From Candidatus Hadarchaeota archaeon (lineage in GTDB: Archaea > CAYQAE01 > CAYVLA01), in assembly GCA_964621445.1 (NCBI GenBank), contig CAZUNO010000011.1, positions 17,298-81,297 of the forward strand: DNA of 64,000 nt, read 5' to 3'. Shown here piece after piece: positions 7,788-50,456 of the stretch. The notes under the pieces were generated by a model, which saw nothing but the letters and a program-made list of their open reading frames with translations, did no database searches and was not told the DNA's origin. Within the stretch, counting starts at the first letter, position 1. Each line of letters starts with the position of its first letter. The translations under genes and the position numbers were made by a program.

Positions 7788-8261
7788 TTGGTTTCAGAAG
7801 AAGTCATAGCCGCGCTTGCCATTGGTCTCGCGGTGACCATTCCCGGCATAATGTCAGCTATCAGCGTTTCAACGGTGGGTGTGGCCGCAGCGGGCCTGGT
7901 CTCCGAGGAACCAAAGAAGTTTTCCAAGGCCTTTATCCTGGAGATCCTGCCCGGAACCCAGGGTTTCTATGGTTTCATAGGCGGTATGCTGGTCATGATA
8001 GCTCTCGACTGGTTGGGTGGTAGTCCACCCCCCCTGGCAGAAGGCATGGGGCTGACGGTCCTGGTGGCTGCGGTGCCCGCGATTCTACAGGGCTTCACGT
8101 CCTACTACCAGGGACTGGTGGCCACTGCCGGTGTTTCCTCGATCGCCAAGAAGGAGGAGACATTTGGAAGCTGTGTGCTGATGTCGGTAATGGTGGAGAC
8201 CTACGCCATTCTCGGTTTCCTCAGCACTTTTCTCCTGTTGATAGGCCTTCAAATATGGTAA
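7788..8261 (+). CDS. atpK: A/V-type ATP synthase subunit K (c), two-hairpin form
   Basis: LPGTQGFYGF and VMVETYAILGF motifs, four TM helices, NtpK-like. Confidence 0.92.
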   Translation: MVSEEVIAALAIGLAVTIPGIMSAISVSTVGVAAAGLVSEEPKKFSKAFILEILPGTQGFYGFIGGMLVMIALDWLGGSPPPLAEGMGLTVLVAAVPAILQGFTSYYQGLVATAGVSSIAKKEETFGSCVLMSVMVETYAILGFLSTFLLLIGLQIW

Positions 8262-8279
8262 GGCCGGGTCCCCAGGAGC

Positions 8280-8612
8280 ATGCCGGAGAGTGACCACTTG
8301 GAAGACGAACTTGAGCTAGTTTTCGAGGCCGAGAAAAAGGTCGAGAATATCGTTTCGGAGGCCGAAGGTAAGGCCAGAAGACTGAAGTCCGAGGCTGAGT
8401 CGGAGGCCGAGGAGATCGTTTCCCGGTTCCGGGAGGAGGCTGAGTCGGAGGCCGAGGAGATGATCTCGGAGAAGGTCTCCCAGGCCCAGGAGAAGGGCCA
8501 GGAGCTCCGCCGAAAGCACGAGTACAGGATATCAAAGATGGAAATGGCCGCGAAGTCCAACATGGAGGAGGCGGTCGACATCATAATCAATTCCGTTATA
8601 GAGGAGAGCTAG
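8280..8612 (+). CDS. atpH: A-type ATP synthase subunit H/G (peripheral stalk)
   Basis: 110-aa E/A/K-rich coiled coil in operon position, C-terminal EEAVDIII. Confidence 0.8.
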   Translation: MPESDHLEDELELVFEAEKKVENIVSEAEGKARRLKSEAESEAEEIVSRFREEAESEAEEMISEKVSQAQEKGQELRRKHEYRISKMEMAAKSNMEEAVDIIINSVIEES

Positions 8613-20696: not shown

Positions 20697-21281
20697 GTGT
20701 CTAAATTGGAAGAGGTCATGGAGCCTGAGGATAAATACGCCGTAATACGTGATGCGCTGTACCGACTGGGCGGAAGAGTTAGACATGACGTCCTGGAGGG
20801 CGAGGTCTGCGGACGAAAACATCGCTGGAGATCCGAGCCCGTGGTACTTTCCAAGCGGTCATTCAAGATATACCTGAAGATCCTAATTCTGAAGGGGCAC
20901 ATACTGAAGGACGAGGTCGAGACCCCGGTGGGGAATAACGTGTACTACGAGTTGACCTCGAAGATATCGAGGAGGATAGAGGTCCATCGGTACGCGGTGG
21001 TGGCCGGCATACTACAGGCCGGTTACCAGCTGCCACCGGTCCTGGAATCATTACGCAAGACCGCGGTATCTCTAATGGAGAGCTACCCCCATCTGGTACC
21101 CGAGCTGGGGGAGTACGGGTCCAAGAGGTATGTCACCTGGATGTCGACCCAGTGGAGCTCGGAGGCCCGGGAGACCCTAACCCAGATACTGGCCAGAAGG
21201 TACGTCCTGGTGGCCGGTGAGATGATAATTCCGCTCAAGGAACTTAATCCCGGGATGCGGGAAACCCTGATGATAGACTGA
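20697..21281 (+). CDS. Hypothetical protein, possible winged-helix N-terminus
   Basis: 194-aa ORF; SKRSFKIYLKILILKGHI...NVYYEL pattern; TTTATAA upstream near 20641. Confidence 0.6.
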   Translation: MSKLEEVMEPEDKYAVIRDALYRLGGRVRHDVLEGEVCGRKHRWRSEPVVLSKRSFKIYLKILILKGHILKDEVETPVGNNVYYELTSKISRRIEVHRYAVVAGILQAGYQLPPVLESLRKTAVSLMESYPHLVPELGEYGSKRYVTWMSTQWSSEARETLTQILARRYVLVAGEMIIPLKELNPGMRETLMID

Positions 21282-21327
21282 TTTCCGGACGGGAACCGCC
21301 CGATCGCTGCTTGATGGTCAAAGATAA

Positions 21328-22143
21328 TTGAGAACATGTGGTGCTGTGAAAGGCGAAACCAGGATCAAGGAAGTCGTGTGCAAGACGGCGTTGAGTCCCT
21401 GCGGTCTGCCGGGGTTCGATTATTCCCTGAATCCCTACCGGGGATGCGGACACGGATGCGTCTATTGCTATTCACCGGCGGTGATAAGGGAGACCAGGGA
21501 GTGGGGGACCTTCGTTGATGTCAAGGTGAACATCCCCAACGTTCTGGCAAAGGAGCTGGGGCGTAAGAGGGAGGGAATTATATGGCTGGGAAGCGTGTGT
21601 GATGCATATCAGCCAGCCGAGGAGAGGTTCGCCCTGACCAGGAAGTGCCTGAGGCAGCTGCTCAGGGTCGATTGGTCCATCTCCCTTCTCACCAAGTCCT
21701 CCCTATCTGCCCGGGACTTCGATCTGATGGCCGATTTCTCAGATTTTGATCTCGGGTACAGCATAACCTCCGACGATGATTCCCTGCGCAGGAAGATGGA
21801 GCCTGGCGCCTCCTCGGTGGATGAAAGGCTGGAAGCCATGGCCAGGGCCAGCGATAGGGGGCTCGACCCGTGGGCATTCATAGCTCCCATCATTCCCGGA
21901 AGGACCGACCGGGTCGGGGATATGGAGTCCCTTATAGAGGCCCTGGCCGATGCCGGGGTTGAGAGGGTCGGTTTTGATCCTTTCCGTTACAAGTCCAGGT
22001 GCTGGCCCAGGATGAGGGAGTTTCTGGGGGAGGGGTCGGTGGAGGATTTCAAGGAGGCCCTGAGGAGTCCGGAGCACTTCCTCTCCGTGGCGAGGACCAT
22101 TGAGCAGGAGTGCAGCAAACGGGGCATGAAGTTGGTGGCCTAG
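21328..22143 (+). CDS. Radical SAM protein, SplB/Rv2578c-like family
   Basis: NPYRGCGHGCVYCY CxxxCxxC motif, DAYQPAE, LLTKS, EPGASSVDERL. Confidence 0.9.
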   Translation: MRTCGAVKGETRIKEVVCKTALSPCGLPGFDYSLNPYRGCGHGCVYCYSPAVIRETREWGTFVDVKVNIPNVLAKELGRKREGIIWLGSVCDAYQPAEERFALTRKCLRQLLRVDWSISLLTKSSLSARDFDLMADFSDFDLGYSITSDDDSLRRKMEPGASSVDERLEAMARASDRGLDPWAFIAPIIPGRTDRVGDMESLIEALADAGVERVGFDPFRYKSRCWPRMREFLGEGSVEDFKEALRSPEHFLSVARTIEQECSKRGMKLVA

Positions 22144-22503
22144 TTGAAATCGAAACCTAATCTGGTGCTGGTAAGCAGGAACCTGCAAAGCCGCTCCTAC
22201 ATAAGGGCCCAGCTGATCGAGGAGGGCATAGAGGTGGCAGCGTTTAGATCGCTGGACGATGCCAGGCACTGGATGTTCGTGGGAGGGAGGGTACCGGACC
22301 TGGTCCTGGTGGATATCTGGAGAATGCCCCTGGAACCCGAGTTCATCAATTGGATGGAGGATTTGAGTGACCGGGCCCCGCTCCTGTTCCTCACCGGCGC
22401 TCGCCAGAGACTACCTCAGGCGATCCAGGGCCTGGGAGACGCAATCCGACGGCCGGCGAGCGTGGGACAGGTCGTGAGCAGGGTGAGGTCAACCCTGGAT
22501 TGA
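22144..22503 (+). CDS. Stand-alone receiver(-like) domain protein
   Basis: PDLVLVDIWRMP, LFLTG, RRP in place of KP; lacks the N-terminal acidic pair. Confidence 0.65.
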   Translation: MKSKPNLVLVSRNLQSRSYIRAQLIEEGIEVAAFRSLDDARHWMFVGGRVPDLVLVDIWRMPLEPEFINWMEDLSDRAPLLFLTGARQRLPQAIQGLGDAIRRPASVGQVVSRVRSTLD

Positions 22504-22609
22504 GGTGAATTGGCTCATTCAAGCCTTGGAACCCCTTTTTTATTCGGGAAAGTTACCTTTTAATCTCCACATGGAATAGCTATATTGGAGATCTCCGGGG
22601 AGCTTTTAG

Positions 22610-24280
22610 TTGTCCTCAGAACTGGAACTCGACTTCTACACCACCATGCGTGATATTGAGTCCCGGGAAGAAGACCTACGGGAGGCCGGTGAGAGGAATG
22701 AAGAGAGTCAGTCGTTTCTAGGTAGGAAATCCGGTCTTAGGACTCTTTTGGTGGCGATTTTAGCCATTCTGGTAATTGCCCTGGTTGTATACCTCCTGCA
22801 TCTGGCTGGGTTTTTCGCGGCTCCCCGGGGCCAGCTTCTTTGGCGCGGTGCTTACCGCTCGCTGTCCGACGATTACCAGGAGCTGGAATCGCTTCACGGC
22901 AATCAGTCCCGATCGCTGAGCCAGGCTCGTGAGGAAAAGGAGAAATGGGAGAATGAGGCGGAATGGTTGCGGTCGGCCCTGGAGGCCAGGGAATCAAGGC
23001 TGGATGAAATCCAGGCGGAGATCGAGATCTGCAGGGAGGAGCTGGGCCGGACCAGGGGTGAGCTGGAAAAGGCCCGGTGCGAATACCTTCGGGCAGCCGA
23101 GCTGCTGAATCGGACCAGGAGGGAAAGGGACGATTACCGGTCATTATCCTCGGTCCTGAGGCATGAACTCTGTGTAACCCGATCAAACCTAACTGCAGCC
23201 AGGCGGGAGCTTGAGATTCGCATGGCCGAGCTAGCCTCGCTCCGGGAGGAGGTGAAAGGGCTCCAAGAACAATTGGAGGCCAGCCGGGACGATAGGGACC
23301 AATGGATATCCAGACTCCACGAACTGGAACTGGAATACCAGGAGCTCATGTGCAGGCTTAAGATCTGCGAGCTCGAGGAGGCCAGGTGGAGGGACCTATA
23401 CCTCGAGGAGCTGGCCGAGCTTGAGGAGGCCCTTGAAAGATGCGGAAATCGGACCAGGTCCCTTTCCCAGGCCCTGGATGACTGCAGGTCAAGAAACCGG
23501 GAATTGAGGGCGGAAAATGAGGAGGTCCTCCTGGAGCTGGAGCGGGTAATTTCCGAGCGGGACAGGTGGAAGGAGGCCTACCGGGAGCTCAACCGGTCAT
23601 ACAGGTTGCTCCAGGAGGAGCTGGGGGCTCTCAGGGAGAGGTGTGCAAATATCAGCGCTGCCCTGGAGGAGGTCACGCGGGAGAGGGACCGGTGGGAGAA
23701 CCTGTACGGTGAATTGGAGGCGAGCTACCGGACCTGTCTCTCAAGGCTGGAATACTGGAGGAACAGGTGTGATGAGCTCATGGCTGACCTGGAGACCGTC
23801 CAGGCCGAAAACGAGGAGCTATCCGACCAGCTGGAGGAATGCAGCTCCCGGGTGAACGAGCTGGAGGCCACCTGCGACTCACTCCAGGAAGAACTTGACC
23901 AGGCCCTTTCCAGCGTCGAGTACTGGCATGGACTGTACGATGGGCTATGGAACATCACCCTCTCGCTGGAGATCGGGAACATATCGGTCCTGGACCGGGA
24001 GTGTGGAAAGCCATCAAGGATTTCGGCGGAGATAATGGCCTGCGTGAGCACCACGGAATCCCCCATGTACCTGTTTCTTGAATACTGGGCTGAACCATTG
24101 GACTGCGTCTGGGGATATGGGACCATTACCGAGGAAGTTTCCCAATGGGAATCAACGTGCAAGACCTTCAATGTCACCCTCGATTTCGGTACCGGGGTGG
24201 GACCCTACAAGGTGATATCCAAGGGCAGGCTTCAACCAATCCATGGGGCGGCGGAAGCCGAGAAGCGGGGTCCGGATTAA
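22610..24280 (+). CDS. Membrane-anchored long coiled-coil protein with C-terminal globular domain
   Basis: One N-proximal TM, roughly 370 aa of heptad repeats, many N-x-S/T sequons, beta-rich Cys-containing C-terminus. Confidence 0.8.
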   Translation: MSSELELDFYTTMRDIESREEDLREAGERNEESQSFLGRKSGLRTLLVAILAILVIALVVYLLHLAGFFAAPRGQLLWRGAYRSLSDDYQELESLHGNQSRSLSQAREEKEKWENEAEWLRSALEARESRLDEIQAEIEICREELGRTRGELEKARCEYLRAAELLNRTRRERDDYRSLSSVLRHELCVTRSNLTAARRELEIRMAELASLREEVKGLQEQLEASRDDRDQWISRLHELELEYQELMCRLKICELEEARWRDLYLEELAELEEALERCGNRTRSLSQALDDCRSRNRELRAENEEVLLELERVISERDRWKEAYRELNRSYRLLQEELGALRERCANISAALEEVTRERDRWENLYGELEASYRTCLSRLEYWRNRCDELMADLETVQAENEELSDQLEECSSRVNELEATCDSLQEELDQALSSVEYWHGLYDGLWNITLSLEIGNISVLDRECGKPSRISAEIMACVSTTESPMYLFLEYWAEPLDCVWGYGTITEEVSQWESTCKTFNVTLDFGTGVGPYKVISKGRLQPIHGAAEAEKRGPD

Positions 24281-24410: not shown

Positions 24411-24430
24411 CCGATAACTTTTTAAGTTAG
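24411..24430 (+). promoter_or_regulatory. BRE/TATA promoter of the BHB-RNA precursor, overlapped by palindrome TAACTT-N3-AAGTTA
   Basis: CCGATAAC followed by TTTTTAAG (24419-26); archaeal spacing predicts a start near 24448, where the structured region begins. Confidence 0.65.
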
Positions 24431-24472
24431 AATGACATATATTCATTCCCTGTCGTGGCCGGCAGGGCAGGT

Positions 24473-24780
24473 AGGAAGCAGACAGTCACGGGAAATGGTT
24501 CGATGTCCTTTGGATGTCGAGCCGGTGACGAACGCCTCTTTCCAGGGCCTATGTCCGTGGGAAGTCGCGTTCCAAGCCACGGGATTGATCGGCTGCGATC
24601 GATTTCCCCGAAACCAGTCGAAAAAAGTGGCCTCCCGTAAAGGGTCTCGCTCCGTTGAGGTACGAGCCATCGTCGAGTATCCCTGGTACAGTGGCTTTCT
24701 CGGTGCGAGCAAAGGAGCAGGTATCCAGGTCCGAGCCTCAGAAGAGGACTGGTGACTTGCTTTACGTCGCTTCCCTGCAA
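24473..24780 (+). ncRNA. BHB-flanked structured RNA 1 (308 nt, predicted excised and circular), unknown family
   Basis: Canonical BHB: CCGGCAGG-GCAG-[GUA]-GGAAGC (24459-79) with GCUUCC-CUGC-[AAA]-CCUGCCGG (24769-89); internal G-U-containing hairpins; paralogous to RNA 2. Confidence 0.8.
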
Positions 24781-24811
24781 ACCTGCCGGTTTGACGGGCA
24801 CAGGAGCGGTA

Positions 24812-25099
24812 AGGAGACGGATGCTGCCGGGAACAAGCAACAGGTTCCGGCTTGTTGCTTGGTGGAAGTTGATGGGTGTGTGAACACGCATCGGCAATGC
24901 CGCCGGGAGCACCTTCGTACCTTCTGATGTTTCCTCAGGTGGTATGGAGAAGGCGGCAATCCGTAAAAGGATCCGCCCGTTGAGGCGGAGTCGAGCACAA
25001 ACTCCCAAGTAAGTTCGACTTCTAACGGGCGGAAGGAACGGACCTCCACGCCAAACCTCAAGAGAGGTGTGGCGGTCTGTTTTGTCCGTCTCCCCGCAA
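24812..25099 (+). ncRNA. BHB-flanked structured RNA 2 (288 nt, predicted excised and circular), unknown family
   Basis: Canonical BHB: GGA-GCGG-[UAA]-GGAGACGGAU (24803-22) with GUCCGUCUCC-CCGC-[AAU]-UCC (25084-103); 10-bp stem 24972-81/25024-33; paralogous to RNA 1. Confidence 0.8.
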
Positions 25100-25140
25100 T
25101 TCCCTATTTACACATCCCTTCTGGACTAGTTGTGGCTACA

Positions 25141-25156
25141 TTTCTTCTCATTTTTT
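25141..25156 (+). terminator. Oligo-T terminator of the ncRNA precursor
   Basis: TTTCTTCTCATTTTTT pyrimidine run, followed by a separate TATA-like TTTTTAT near 25194 for the next gene. Confidence 0.5.
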
Positions 25157-25238: not shown

Positions 25239-26417
25239 TTGCCGAAATACATGTACGCGGATTCGACCGAGTTCGGTCTGCAGCGTGACTTCATAGATAT
25301 ACTCGAAAGGTTCTCGGACGCGGCGATAGAGGCCATTCCAGACCAGCGGGAAATCCTGGAGTTGAAAGAAAAGATAGCCAACAAGGAGTCGGAGAAGGAG
25401 TCCACCCTTACCAGGATAGACAAGTATGGCCAGGAGATAGATTCCTCGATAGAGGACGTGACCAGGCGTTTCGGGGCGGAGGAGTTTGGCCCGGTCCTAG
25501 AGAGGATGAAGGCAGCGGCCTCGGAATACGTCAATGACTTTCGGCAGGCCAGGCTTGAGGCCTTTGAGAAGGAGATGAGCTCCCTGAAGGACAGCCTATC
25601 CAAGAAACAGGCCAGCCTGCTCCAGGTCCTGCAGGACTTCCTGTACCATGACCCCCTGAAGATGGAGCGTCTGGTGGTCGAGGCCTCTCTGGATGGTGAA
25701 AGGTACGATTCCAGGGCCGAGACCTCCTGCCAGAACGGCGTGTTCTACGTATTCAAGCTGGACTTCTTCGACAGAAAAATGGAAGTTAAGGATCTGATAG
25801 AGAAGAAGGTGGAGATACCGGCAGCCATGAAGAAGACCATCATGGGGAAGGAAAAGAAGCCCCGGTTTATCTCCCTAGATGACTGGTGTATAGAGGACCT
25901 GAGGTACGAATCGAATGGGGAGACGGTTCTCAGAGCCACCCTGACCGGCGAGCCGGGCAAGGAGGACTCCCCTAAACTGCAGCTAACCCTGACCCCGGGG
26001 GAGGAAAGGGTTGAGTCGGTTGTGTACACGGACGAGGATGGGGATAGCCTGGACATACTGAAGGACCCCGAGCTCAGGAAGCACGTGGACGAGAACCTGG
26101 AGGAGTATGCCAAGTTCCTCCTGGGCCACTGCTTCACCCTTACCAATAGGAAGAAGGACATGGTCGATGTCCAGATGGACGACCAGGGTCTGGTGGAGAA
26201 CGACCTGGCCGAGAAGTTCATGGTAAGATGCGCAAAGGAATACGCCCCCACCGTGGCCAAGATAAGGGAGAAGGGCCTGGTGGACAAGGAGCTCAACCTG
26301 AAGGTAGAGGACGTCGAGGGCAGGAGAACTGAGCTTTATATGGATATAGAGGAATACAGGTCCAAGATGAAGGCCATCCCTCGCGGGTCAGAGATGTGTT
26401 CCATCATGGGTCTGTAG
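25239..26417 (+). CDS. Hypothetical protein (N-terminal coiled coil, acidic alpha/beta C-terminus)
   Basis: 392-aa ORF, GGTGA before TTG, host-like codon usage; no motif recognised. Confidence 0.8.
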   Translation: MPKYMYADSTEFGLQRDFIDILERFSDAAIEAIPDQREILELKEKIANKESEKESTLTRIDKYGQEIDSSIEDVTRRFGAEEFGPVLERMKAAASEYVNDFRQARLEAFEKEMSSLKDSLSKKQASLLQVLQDFLYHDPLKMERLVVEASLDGERYDSRAETSCQNGVFYVFKLDFFDRKMEVKDLIEKKVEIPAAMKKTIMGKEKKPRFISLDDWCIEDLRYESNGETVLRATLTGEPGKEDSPKLQLTLTPGEERVESVVYTDEDGDSLDILKDPELRKHVDENLEEYAKFLLGHCFTLTNRKKDMVDVQMDDQGLVENDLAEKFMVRCAKEYAPTVAKIREKGLVDKELNLKVEDVEGRRTELYMDIEEYRSKMKAIPRGSEMCSIMGL

Positions 26418-44834: not shown

Positions 44835-46280
44835 TCAGCCCTTGGTTACGGCCAGAGGCCTCAGCTTGGCGACTTTTCTGCTTATTCCCACCTTGTGGCA
44901 GACATCTACAACGTTATTAATGTCCTTGTAAGCGCCGGGGGCTTCCTCCGCGATCACCGGCATACTTGCAGCTTTAACTATGATTCCCTCCTTTTCCAGA
45001 TCGCTCTGCACGGTCTCTCCCCAGAAGTTCTTCTTGGCCTTGGTGCGGCTGAGTATTCTGCCGGCGCCGTGACAGGTGGAGCCGAATGTCTCGTTCATGG
45101 CGGTCTCCGTTCCCACCAGCAGGTAGGAGGCGGTGCCCATGTCTCCGGGTATGATCACCGGCTGTCCTATCTCCGAATAGTCGTCGGGTATGGAGTCGCT
45201 TCCCGGGCCGAAGCTACGGGTTGCTCCCTTACGGTGTACGCATAGTTCCATATCCTCTCCATCTACGGTGTGATACTCCATCTTCCCGATGTTGTGGGCC
45301 ACGTCGTAGACCATGCTCATGTCCAGGCTCTCCGGGCTCTCGCCAAGCACGTCCTGGAAGGTCTCCCTCACCCAGTGCATTATCATCTGCCTGTTGCCCC
45401 ATGCGTAGTTGGCCCCTGCTGACATGGCCGCCATGTAGGAGTCGGCCTCCGGGGTGCCAAGGGGTGCACAGGCCAGCTCGCGGTCCGGGATGTCTATGTC
45501 GTACTTCTTTACCGCTTTCTCCATAACCTTGAGGTAGTCGGAGCATATCTGGTGCCCGCAACCCCTGGAACCGGTATGTATCATGGTTGTTACCTGGTTC
45601 TCGTGATCTATCCCCATCACTTCGGCGGCTTTCTGGTCGAAGATCTTGTCCACGTACTGGATTTCCAGGAAATGGTTTCCGCTACCCAGACTTCCCAGCT
45701 GGGGGATCCCCCTTTTCTTGGCCCTGTCGCTGATAACCGAGGAGTCGGCCCTTTCCAGAGACCCGTTTTCCTCCATATGCTCCAGGTCCTCGTCCCAGCC
45801 GTAGCCGTTCTCCACGGCCCAGGCGGCACCTCTCTCCAACACCTGTTCTATCTCCCTGCTGTCCAGCTTCACCCTGCCCTTACTGCCCAGTCCGGAGGGG
45901 ACATTCTTGAAAGCTGTGTTTATTAGGGATTTCAGGTTGGACTTTATGTCCTCCTTGTCCAGGTTGGTGCGGAGCAGCCTGACTCCGCAGTTGATGTCAT
46001 AACCTATTCCACCGGGGCTTATTACCCCGTCCTCTGAGTCGAAGGCTGCCACCCCTCCGATGGGAAAGCCGTATCCAAGGTGGACATCCGGCATGGCCAT
46101 GGAGTAATTGACGATGCCCGGGAGGCATGCGATATTGACCACCTGGCCTATGGTCCGATTGTCGATTTCCTTCAATAATTTCGAGTCAGCGATTACCCTC
46201 CCCGGCACCCTCATACAGTCCTTGTAGCTGGCGGGGATCTCGTGAACGAGTTCGGATATCTTCTTCATTTGGTTGCTCAT
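44835..46280 (-). CDS. rtcB: tRNA-splicing ligase RtcB
   Basis: [47 protein letters not shown]; no intein. Confidence 0.97.
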
Positions 46281-50343: not shown

Positions 50344-50456
50344 GGGCCCGTAGCTTAGTCTGGTAGATCCCATCGGGAGTCAACAGCGATGGGCTCTTAA
50401 CCCATTGAAGAATTTTCTTCGGGGAAAGGTCTGGGGTTCAAGTCCCCACGGGCCCG
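50344..50456 (+). tRNA. tRNA-Lys(CUU) with two non-canonical introns (50367-50384 at 22/23; 50406-50426 at 43/44); CCA not encoded
   Basis: Removing the two inserts gives GGGCCCG-TA-GCTT-AGTCTGGTA-GAGC-G-ATGGG-CTCTTAA-CCCAT-AGGTC-TGGGG-TTCAAGT-CCCCA-CGGGCCC-G, a complete cloverleaf. Confidence 0.92.

What the first reader, a model, noticed from the sequence alone, without database searches (positions are those of the whole stretch)
24448..25156. Stand-alone transcript encoding two tandem BHB-flanked ~300-nt RNAs: a candidate circular ncRNA system
Seen: between two CDSs lies about 950 bp with no credible ORF, a TATA box at 24419-26 and a T-run at 25141-56. It holds two long-range stems, each a canonical bulge-helix-bulge (4-bp central helix, 3-nt bulge 3' of it on each strand). 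BHB1 is GCAG/CUGC with bulges GUA (24471-73) and AAA (24779-81), flanked by 8-bp and 6-bp perfect helices. BHB2 is GCGG/CCGC with bulges UAA (24810-12) and AAU (25098-100), flanked by 3-bp and 10-bp helices. Established: archaeal EndA cuts after the second bulge nucleotide and ligation yields circles, as for tRNA/rRNA introns, pre-rRNA processing stems and the permuted SRP RNA of Thermoproteus. Inference: the precursor is built like a miniature pre-rRNA but releases two circles, 24473-24780 (308 nt) and 24812-25099 (288 nt), both with the junction GCAA|AGGA. There is no host tRNA or rRNA, so the excised pieces appear to be the product. I do not recognise the family.
Basis: partly seen in the sequence, partly recalled or inferred. 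Interest (0 to 1): 0.95.

Follow-up and report, generated by a model that had tools for sequence, protein, structure and literature searches.

The report
Paired circular RNAs in an archaeon
A small archaeal lineage carries a stand-alone gene for two related, intricately folded ~300-base RNAs, each framed by the cut-and-rejoin signal that archaea use on ribosomal and transfer RNA, so each is probably released as a closed ring of unknown function.

Summary
Window 24448-25156 is a separate transcription unit. It has a TTTTTAAG TATA box and a T-run. [quoted passage not shown]

A BHB in one sequence is not statistically unusual. The weight comes from comparison:
- The same unit1-unit2 cassette occurs in all 4 genomes of one archaeal family and in metagenome contigs.
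- On 15 units, 58 modelled pairs are 91% paired, and 32 show compensatory changes.
- The BHB columns carry no indels.
- Conservation follows the predicted cut sites. Bulge bases kept in the circle are invariant (A; AA), and discarded ones vary.
- Ligation would create a GCAA-capped hairpin.

Three loci gave no meaningful Rfam match. Canonical SRP RNA, RNase P RNA and rRNA lie elsewhere in the genome, which also encodes RtcB and two EndA paralogs, one resembling the broad-specificity epsilon type.

No RNA data exist, so cleavage, circularity and function are inferred.

Verdict: a real, previously undescribed, lineage-restricted pair of large structured ncRNAs, most likely matured by EndA/RtcB into circles. 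It is a new variant of a known biogenesis route and its function is unknown.

The parts
24413..24426 (+). Archaeal promoter: the TATA box TTTTTAAG (24419-26), preceded by a BRE-like GATAAC
   Evidence: Read directly. TTTTTAAG occurs only twice in the window. The same box sits at the same distance in the other loci and upstream of this genome's rRNA operon.
24457..24472 (+). Exon 1, discarded: the 5' strand of the BHB1 outer helix (24459-66), the central helix GCAG (24467-70) and bulge nt 1-2 (24471-72)
   Evidence: The outer and central helices covary with their partners.
24473..24780 (+). Unit 1: predicted 308-nt circle. It begins with bulge nt 3 (invariant A) and ends with the invariant ..CTGCAA
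   Evidence: CM score 236 bits.
24781..24811 (+). Linker exon, discarded: the 3' strand of the BHB1 outer helix (24782-89), a spacer with no conserved sequence, then the 5' strand of BHB2 (outer GGA 24803-05, central GCGG 24806-09, bulge nt 1-2)
   Evidence: The linker is 21-31 nt in the loci read, and its spacer differs between loci.
24812..25099 (+). Unit 2: predicted 288-nt circle, a paralog of unit 1
   Evidence: CM score 214 bits. Units 1 and 2 form separate clades with 100/100 support.
25100..25103 (+). Bulge nt 3 and the 3-bp 3' strand of the BHB2 outer helix (TCC)
   Evidence: The outer helix covaries between loci (GGA/TCC, AGAA/TTCT, GGGA/TCCC).
25141..25156 (+). T-rich run ending in T6: the likely archaeal terminator
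   Evidence: T-runs follow unit 2 within 10-60 nt in the other loci.

Best explanation
The locus is a dedicated non-coding operon. A strong TATA promoter drives a precursor of about 700 nt that carries two paralogous, multi-helix RNAs. Each RNA is enclosed by a bulge-helix-bulge motif.

The archaeal splicing endonuclease EndA cuts after the second base of each 3-nt bulge. The ligase RtcB then joins the ends of each excised piece. This gives two circles of about 308 and 288 nt, while the short leader, linker and trailer are by-products.

Ligation converts the 3' half of the central helix, plus the retained bulge bases, into a hairpin cap: ..UCC-Y-GCAA-A-GGA... That is a GNRA-type tetraloop on the closing helix, so the mature RNA has no free ends and a sealed P1.

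The two circles are kept and duplicated together, so they probably act as a pair. They could be two subunits or two variants of one ribonucleoprotein or RNA machine.

Shown here: the anatomy, conservation, covariation, the presence of the enzymes, and the lack of any known-family match. Inferred: transcription, cleavage, ligation, persistence as circles, and joint function. The cellular role is unknown. My best guess is a stable RNP scaffold or catalytic RNA rather than a regulator of neighbouring genes.
For: (1) The geometry is exact in the window.

(2) The cassette is conserved.
- blastn finds it in 4 of 41 genomes. These are all 4 members of family f1, and none of the 37 other genomes has it.
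- The covariance model R1 finds 4 full-length units in the window's own genome, at 210-236 bits. In 4 of the 5 genomes of the phylum it finds 11 full-length and 2 partial units.
- Among 151 archaeal genomes only those same 4 match strongly. Two others give 14-16 bit matches at E 0.004-0.009.
- An exact-pattern scan of 185,579 species genomes returned 4 contigs from 3 MAGs. Metagenome contigs gave 7 and viral contigs 0.

(3) Covariation on 15 units.
- Of 58 pairs, 91.4% of cells are paired, against 39-56% when the partners are slid.
- 32 pairs change on both sides.
- 0 of 500 shuffles reach any measure.
- The central BHB helix switches between GCAG/CUGC and GCGG/CCGC.

(4) The BHB columns have no gaps in 15 of 15 units, while indels are common elsewhere.

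(5) Conservation follows the cut sites.
- In the 5' bulge, nt 1-2 vary (GU, AU, AC, UA, UC, AA, CA) and nt 3 is A in 15 of 15.
- In the 3' bulge, nt 1-2 are AA in 15 of 15 and nt 3 is A, G or U.

(6) G-U pairs, the TATA box and the T-runs all agree on the + strand.

(7) The enzymes are encoded. RtcB lies in the same window at 44838-46145(-). There are two EndA genes.

(8) The 16S processing stem of the same genome has a BHB of the same polarity and a similar post-cut start, AGGAAGC.

(9) Unit 1 and unit 2 form separate clades at 100/100. All 6 complete loci have unit 1 followed by unit 2. The two cassettes of this genome group together for both units, so the pair was duplicated as a pair.
Against: - There is no direct evidence that the locus is transcribed or cut.
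- The outer helix of BHB2 is only 3-4 bp. In the G001 and L022 loci it is interrupted or displaced, so it is not a textbook hBHBh' there.
- One unit (G002 unit 1) has an A.C mismatch in the central helix.
- In pre-rRNA, BHB circles are intermediates that are opened again, so a circular end state is not guaranteed.
- The invariant GCAA-A could reflect an EndA or RtcB preference in this lineage rather than a function of the cap. This genome's own 16S BHB also has AAA bulges.
- All homologs come from one family, so the sequences are not independent.
- No partner protein or target was found.
Confidence: 0.7

Rival explanations
1. The biogenesis is the same, but the circles are only intermediates, as in 16S/23S maturation. 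EndA and RtcB excise and circularise each unit. Another nuclease then opens the ring elsewhere. The working RNAs are linear, possibly permuted relative to the gene.
For: This is the established fate of circular pre-rRNAs (papers seen as abstracts or passages: PMC7714728; PMC12918454 abstract). The cassette resembles a miniature rRNA operon in its promoter box and in the style of its 16S-like BHB.
Against: The bases that exist only as a contiguous element after ligation (Y-GCAA-A) are invariant in 15 of 15 units. That is most easily explained if the ligated cap persists. No conserved second processing site is evident.
Confidence: 0.2
2. The units are selfish or relict BHB-type introns, like ORF-less archaeal rRNA introns, nested in a non-coding host transcript. 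They are kept by their own propagation rather than by a cellular function.
For: The cassette occurs in different genomic contexts and in 1-3 copies per genome. At one syntenic site in G003 it is inverted relative to the flanking genes.
Against: The internal fold is under strong purifying selection, with compensatory changes across three genera. The unit 1 and unit 2 paralogs are each retained. No copies were found inside tRNA or rRNA genes or elsewhere in the genome. The cassette has its own promoter and terminator, and there is no functional host exon.
Confidence: 0.05
3. The two RNAs are ordinary linear structured ncRNAs. Their closing helices merely happen to contain two 3-nt bulges, and no EndA processing occurs.
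For: Loose BHB-like pairings are common by chance: 39 observed against 32 expected per window.
Against: Exact 4-bp/3-nt geometry with no indels is kept in 15 of 15 units, in both paralog clades. Covariation preserves the central helix. The switch in conservation falls exactly at the canonical cut positions.
Confidence: 0.04
4. The region encodes a protein on the minus strand (ORF 24427-25008, 193 aa), and the RNA structure is incidental.
For: The antisense strand is almost stop-free. Runs of up to 217 codons occur, and runs of 180 codons or more occur in 5 of 6 loci.
Against: The antisense translations are Arg/Pro/Ser/Gly-rich and share only short patches that mirror the conserved RNA motifs, for example 11 residues between the two cassettes of the same genome. 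They are not collinear. Homologs differ by many 1-2 nt indels. None of the 4 ORFs tested has a Pfam match at E<=0.1. The substitutions are compensatory for helices.
Confidence: 0.01

Closest known systems
Archaeal pre-rRNA processing stems (BHB cleavage by EndA, ligation to circular pre-16S and pre-23S)
   Same: One polycistronic non-coding precursor carries two long-range stems, each with a BHB, so two circles are predicted. This genome's own 16S stem has the same BHB polarity, AAA bulges, a post-cut start AGGAAGC and a TTTTTAAG promoter box.
   Different: The enclosed RNAs are about 300 nt, are paralogs of each other, and are not rRNA. For rRNA the circle is usually an intermediate. Here the ligation-made cap is itself invariant.
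Permuted SRP RNA of Thermoproteus (PMC4731332; search listing and abstract only)
   Same: It is a stand-alone non-coding RNA gene whose functional form is made by BHB cleavage and circularisation.
   Different: That RNA is a known universal RNA with a permuted gene, and the gene holds one unit. Here a canonical SRP RNA exists elsewhere (196 bits). The units match no known family, and there are two in tandem.
Stable circular BHB introns (tRNA-Trp intron with its C/D box sRNA, rRNA introns, metazoan tricRNAs)
   Same: A functional or stable RNA is released as a circle by the tRNA splicing machinery.
   Different: Those sit in a functional host tRNA or rRNA. Here the exons are only BHB strands and a non-conserved linker.
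Large orphan structured ncRNAs (OLE, GOLLD, ROOL, raiA classes; recalled, plus the abstract of 10.1101/2024.12.08.627333)
   Same: They share size, many conserved helices with covariation, GNRA-type loops and unknown biochemical function.
   Different: Those classes are bacterial or phage RNAs, are linear, and are in Rfam. This one is archaeal, BHB-processed, tandemly paired, and without an Rfam match.
Circular isoforms of IS200/IS605 omega RNAs in archaea (PMC12558985; search listing and abstract only)
   Same: It is an archaeal non-coding RNA reported in circular form.
   Different: Those accompany TnpB-type genes. The neighbours here are coiled-coil or unknown proteins, with no transposon protein domains among the 10 neighbouring ORFs scanned.

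Membership tests
EndA substrate with canonical hBHBh' motif | A 4-bp central helix | tested here: met
   Columns 11-14 pair with columns 341-344 and are 98.3% paired over 15 units. One pair covaries G-C/A-U, and one unit has an A.C mismatch.
EndA substrate with canonical hBHBh' motif | Two 3-nt bulges on opposite strands, each directly 3' of the central helix | tested here: met
   There are no gaps in the bulge columns in 15 of 15 units. The 16S stem of this genome has the same polarity.
EndA substrate with canonical hBHBh' motif | Flanking helices on both sides | tested here: inconclusive
   The inner helix is 9 bp and 97.8% paired in all units. The outer helix is 8-10 bp for unit 1 but only 3-4 bp for unit 2, and it is interrupted or displaced in the G001 and L022 loci.
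EndA substrate with canonical hBHBh' motif | Cleavage by EndA and ligation by RtcB giving a circle | not testable with these tools
   Only the enzyme genes could be shown: two EndA genes and RtcB. No RNA run was listed.
Any Rfam 15 family (4227 models) | A score at or above the family's gathering threshold | tested here: not met
   The gathering-threshold scan of the window found only a tRNA at 50344-50456. Scans at E<=10 of three loci gave 4, 6 and 3 matches at 8-19 bits. No family recurred between loci, and all scores were far below the cut-offs.
SRP RNA (including the permuted Thermoproteus type) | A match to the archaeal SRP model, whole or in parts | tested here: not met
   There was no SRP match at E<=10 across the tandem units. 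A canonical full-length SRP RNA lies on contig C16 (196.5 bits).
RNase P RNA | A match to the archaeal RNase P model | tested here: not met
   The locus has no match. A canonical RNase P RNA lies on contig C17 (203 bits).
BHB intron of a tRNA, rRNA or mRNA | Functional host exons that are joined by splicing | tested here: not met
   The window has no ARAGORN tRNA, and the locus has no Rfam tRNA or rRNA. The exons are BHB strands plus a 21-31 nt linker with no conserved sequence. No Pfam-matching ORF spans the locus.
Transposon-associated guide RNA (omega RNA or bridge RNA) | Adjacency to a TnpB, IscB or IS110 gene | tested here: not met
   A Pfam scan of 10 neighbouring ORFs found none. The contexts differ between loci.

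The most novel reading that the evidence does not exclude
The two circles are the RNA subunits of a so far unknown ribonucleoprotein or ribozyme that is specific to this small archaeal phylum. It would be the first large, complex-folded orphan RNA class in archaea whose active form is a covalently closed ring. EndA/RtcB ligation would act as an obligatory maturation step that builds a GNRA cap needed for folding or for pairing of the two rings.
Probability: 0.3. Interest if true: 0.85.

Novelty: new variant of a known kind. Interest (0 to 1): 0.72.

Why it matters
Known substrates of the archaeal splicing endonuclease are tRNAs, rRNAs, a few mRNAs and one permuted SRP RNA. A dedicated operon whose only products are two excised, probably circular, 300-nt RNAs of an unknown family would show that archaea use this machinery to make stand-alone circular RNAs. 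It would also add a new large structured RNA class with clear covariation support, and such classes have often turned out to be ribozymes or RNP cores. The sequence makes sharp, cheap predictions: four cut sites, two back-splice junctions and a ligation-made GNRA cap. The design is also relevant to engineered circular-RNA expression systems based on BHB motifs.

Tried and rejected
- Expression data. The look-up of sequencing runs listed no RNA holder. The seven listed runs are DNA runs from two studies (microbial mat and hypersaline lake metagenomes).
- Known families. Rfam was searched at the gathering threshold and at E<=10 on three loci. SRP RNA and RNase P RNA were ruled out because canonical copies lie elsewhere.
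- Coding. No circle has a stop-free frame, and circle lengths are not consistently multiples of 3. The SD-plus-AUG-like start of unit 2 (GGAGRCGRAUG) is AAG in one homolog. It is part of the closing helix P1.
- Antisense ORF. Rejected.
- Guide function. Perfect complementarity of 9 nt or more to the rRNA operon transcript gave 21 hits, against 18.5 expected from shuffles.
- K-turn. The internal loop after helix CUCGCCCC/GGGGUGAG lacks the GA on the non-bulged strand in most units. I judged this by eye, and it was not tested further.
- tRNA-Cys anticodon-loop mimicry. The unit 1 cap CUGCAAA resembles one, but unit 2 has C at the position of U33, so I rejected the idea. The comparison is recalled, not tested.
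- Partner genes. The flanking ORFs are coiled-coil or unknown proteins. Their homologs flank one G003 cassette, but in inverted relative orientation and with another gene between. Other loci have different neighbours.
- Mobile or viral origin. Viral contigs gave 0 matches.
- Literature. Four full-text searches and passages of PMC7714728, PMC6379350, PMC12918454 and 10.64898/2026.10.21.760802 gave no description of such a cassette. Supplements were not seen and might list unannotated circular RNAs.

Full report
**Observation**

- A TTTTTAAG box lies at 24419-26. It is one of two matches in the window, against 0.57 expected.
- BHB1 has an outer helix of 8 bp (10 with G-U), a central helix GCAG/CTGC, bulges GTA and AAA, and an inner helix of 6 bp.
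- BHB2 has an outer helix of 3 bp, a central helix GCGG/CCGC, bulges TAA and AAT, and an inner helix of 10 bp.
- A T-rich run ends in T6 at 25151-56.
- Cutting after the second bulge base gives pieces of 308 nt (24473-24780) and 288 nt (24812-25099).

The polarity, with each bulge 3' of the central helix, is the one found in this genome's own 16S processing stem. It also follows from the canonical 37/38 tRNA intron. That second point is established knowledge that I recall, not something I tested.

**Is it more than chance?**

In one sequence, hardly. A script scan for long-range BHBs found 39 loose examples in the window, against a mean of 32.4 in 20 simulated sequences. With an outer helix of 8 bp or more the window has 2 (BHB1 and an unrelated pairing at 8221/8440 inside coding sequence), and 6 of 20 simulations had one. 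The precursor does fold unusually well, with z = -8.8 on 20 shuffles. So do the units folded as circles, with z = -4.6 and -7.8 on 100 shuffles each. The real evidence is comparative.

**Homologs**

- The two units align with each other.
- blastn found a second cassette in the same genome (contig C29). It also found tandem cassettes in the three other genomes of the same family. None of the 37 other genomes searched had one.
- An exact-pattern scan of one genome per 185,579 species returned 4 contigs from 3 MAGs. Their records are titled Candidatus Hadarchaeota archaeon or uncultured Thermococci archaeon.
- Metagenome contigs gave 7 further stretches, some near-identical to the MAGs and two divergent. 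Viral contigs gave none.
- A covariance model built from 15 units (R1) scored the four units of the window's genome at 210-236 bits and nothing else above 11 bits.
- R1 matched 4 of the 5 genomes of the phylum held by the tool. The sister-family genome, 98% complete, had no match.
- Among 151 archaeal genomes, R1 matched only those same four strongly, plus two 14-16 bit matches at per-genome E of 0.004-0.009.

Every locus that could be read has a TATA box (TTTTTAAG, or CTTTTATAG in the second cassette of this genome) about 30 nt upstream, then unit 1, a 21-31 nt linker, unit 2 and a T-run.

**Structure**

- RNAalifold on 11 units predicted 65 pairs, 38 of them with compensatory changes. Separate folds of the unit 1 and unit 2 sets gave 105 and 74 pairs.
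- Counting the R1 structure on 15 units, 58 pairs are 91.4% paired, against 39-56% for slid partners. 32 pairs change on both sides, and 0 of 500 shuffles reach any measure.
- The architecture is a closing helix P1 (the inner BHB helix), a variable 5' domain of capped hairpins, and a conserved 3' domain.
- The 3' domain has three conserved elements. One is a 3-bp hairpin with GNRA-type loops (GAAA, GCAA, GUAA, GAGA, GUAAA, once UUCG). One is a helix enclosing GUUGAGG. One is a long hairpin CCAG-(7-nt loop with CCRA)-CCUC-ARRA-GAGG-N-CUGG.
- Many G-U pairs place the RNA on the + strand.

**The BHBs**

The BHB columns carry no gaps in 15 of 15 units, although indels are frequent elsewhere. The central helix covaries between GCAG/CUGC and GCGG/CCGC.

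Most telling, conservation changes exactly at the predicted cut sites. In the 5' bulge the two discarded bases vary (GU, AU, AC, UA, UC, AA, CA), and the retained third base is A in 15 of 15. In the 3' bulge the two retained bases are AA in 15 of 15, and the discarded third is A, G or U. The retained 3' strand CYGC is invariant apart from Y.

After ligation these bases form ..UCC-Y-GCAA-A-GGA... That is P1 extended by a U-A pair (unit 1) or a C.A pair (unit 2) and capped by a GCAA tetraloop. The circular MFE folds keep P1 with this 7-base loop. I read this as selection on the ligated product. An alternative is a sequence preference of the local enzymes.

Weak points:
- The outer helix of BHB2 is only 3-4 bp, though it covaries.
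- In the G001 and L022 loci that helix is interrupted or displaced.
- One unit has an A.C mismatch in the central helix.

**Enzymes**

- The genome encodes RtcB, inside this window at 44838-46145(-).
- It encodes two EndA genes that are 26% identical.
- All four genomes with the RNA have both EndA genes. The sister-family genome without the RNA has a single short one. That is one clade, so it is no test.
- The named relatives of the second paralog are tRNA-intron lyases of Aenigmarchaeota and Micrarchaeota at 37-43% identity over about 95% of its length.
- A review (PMC6379350, passages read) describes the Micrarchaeum enzyme as the 390-aa epsilon2 type with broad specificity for relaxed BHBs. 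This would fit the weak outer helix of BHB2. I did not test the assignment structurally.

**What it is not**

- No Rfam family reaches even a third of its gathering score in three loci, and no family recurs between loci.
- Canonical SRP RNA, RNase P RNA, 16S and 23S are elsewhere.
- ARAGORN finds no tRNA in the window.
- The exons are just BHB strands and a non-conserved linker, so this is not an intron in a host gene.
- It is not coding. The circles have stops in all frames. The nearly stop-free antisense strand gives non-collinear, low-complexity translations. None of the 4 ORFs tested has a Pfam match.
- Neighbouring proteins give no clue, and contexts differ between loci. One G003 cassette lies near homologs of the window's neighbours but is inverted relative to them. 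That fits an autonomous transcription unit.
- Complementarity to the rRNA operon is at chance level.

**Evolution**

Units 1 and 2 form two clades with 100/100 support. The two cassettes of this genome group together for both units, so the pair was duplicated as a pair. All six complete loci keep the order unit 1 then unit 2. This argues that both RNAs are needed together.

**Interpretation**

Most likely (0.7), this is a dedicated operon whose precursor is cut by EndA at four canonical positions and ligated by RtcB into two circular, highly structured RNAs that work together. Whether the rings persist or are reopened, as in rRNA maturation, is open (rival at 0.2). Function is unknown. The size, number of helices, GNRA-type caps and invariant internal-loop bases resemble RNP cores or ribozymes more than regulators. 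That comparison is inference only.

**Novelty**

The biogenesis route is known. A stand-alone tandem pair of orphan RNAs made by it is not described in the four literature searches and the passages I read. Supplements were not seen. The family is confined to one small lineage from hypersaline mat and lake metagenomes (DNA runs only), and no RNA data were available.

Noticed in passing
G000:C9 (L044:835-2043:+) and G000:C2 (L043:1468-2589:-): There are two EndA paralogs, 26% identical. The second resembles the DPANN epsilon2-type, broad-specificity enzymes. All 4 genomes with the RNA have both, and the sister-family genome without the RNA has one short EndA.
   Followed up: partly
window 44838-46145 (-): The RNA ligase RtcB (609 bits to PF01139) lies about 20 kb downstream of the cassette in the same window.
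   Followed up: no
window 50344-50456 (+): A 113-nt tRNA is found by Rfam (46.5 bits) but missed by ARAGORN. By eye the anticodon loop is CTCTTAA (Lys, CUU). Extra inserts in the D-loop and variable regions suggest non-canonical introns.
   Followed up: no
G000:C17 (L057, L058): The rRNA operon has a TTTTTAAG promoter box. Its 16S BHB (TGGC/AAA and GCCA/AAA) has a post-cut start AGGAAGC that matches unit 1. A tRNA-Ala lies in the spacer, and the RNase P RNA gene sits directly beyond the 23S 3' flank on the other strand.
   Followed up: partly
window 24457-25110 (-) and homologous loci: The antisense strand of the cassette is almost free of stop codons, with runs up to 217 codons and runs of 180 or more in 5 of 6 loci. 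There is no conserved protein, so this is probably a composition effect of the RNA.
   Followed up: yes
window 20697-24280 and 25239-26417; G003:C24 (L015, L060): Five neighbouring ORFs of the window have homologs around one G003 cassette, but that RNA cassette is inverted relative to them. The 392-aa downstream protein, which has no Pfam match, was found only in the two genomes that hold this locus type.
   Followed up: partly
window 8221-8450 (+): This is the strongest other BHB-like pairing in the window (inner helix 10 bp, outer 12 bp, 219 nt apart). It spans the junction of two + strand ORFs and involves a repeated GAG-rich coding motif. It looks coincidental.
   Followed up: partly
L020 and L023 (metagenome contigs): Two contigs share an identical 3' end of unit 1 and linker (about 120 nt) and then carry clearly different unit 2 sequences. 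Their unit 1 hairpin loop is CCTCGGTTTGGAGG instead of CCTCARRAGAGG.
   Followed up: no
L005, L006, L007, L020, L022 downstream of the cassette: In five loci the gene just downstream begins with a similar protein sequence (..LYWRAL..LPPDV..). I took this by eye for a class I fumarate or tartrate hydratase alpha subunit and did not check it against Pfam.
   Followed up: no
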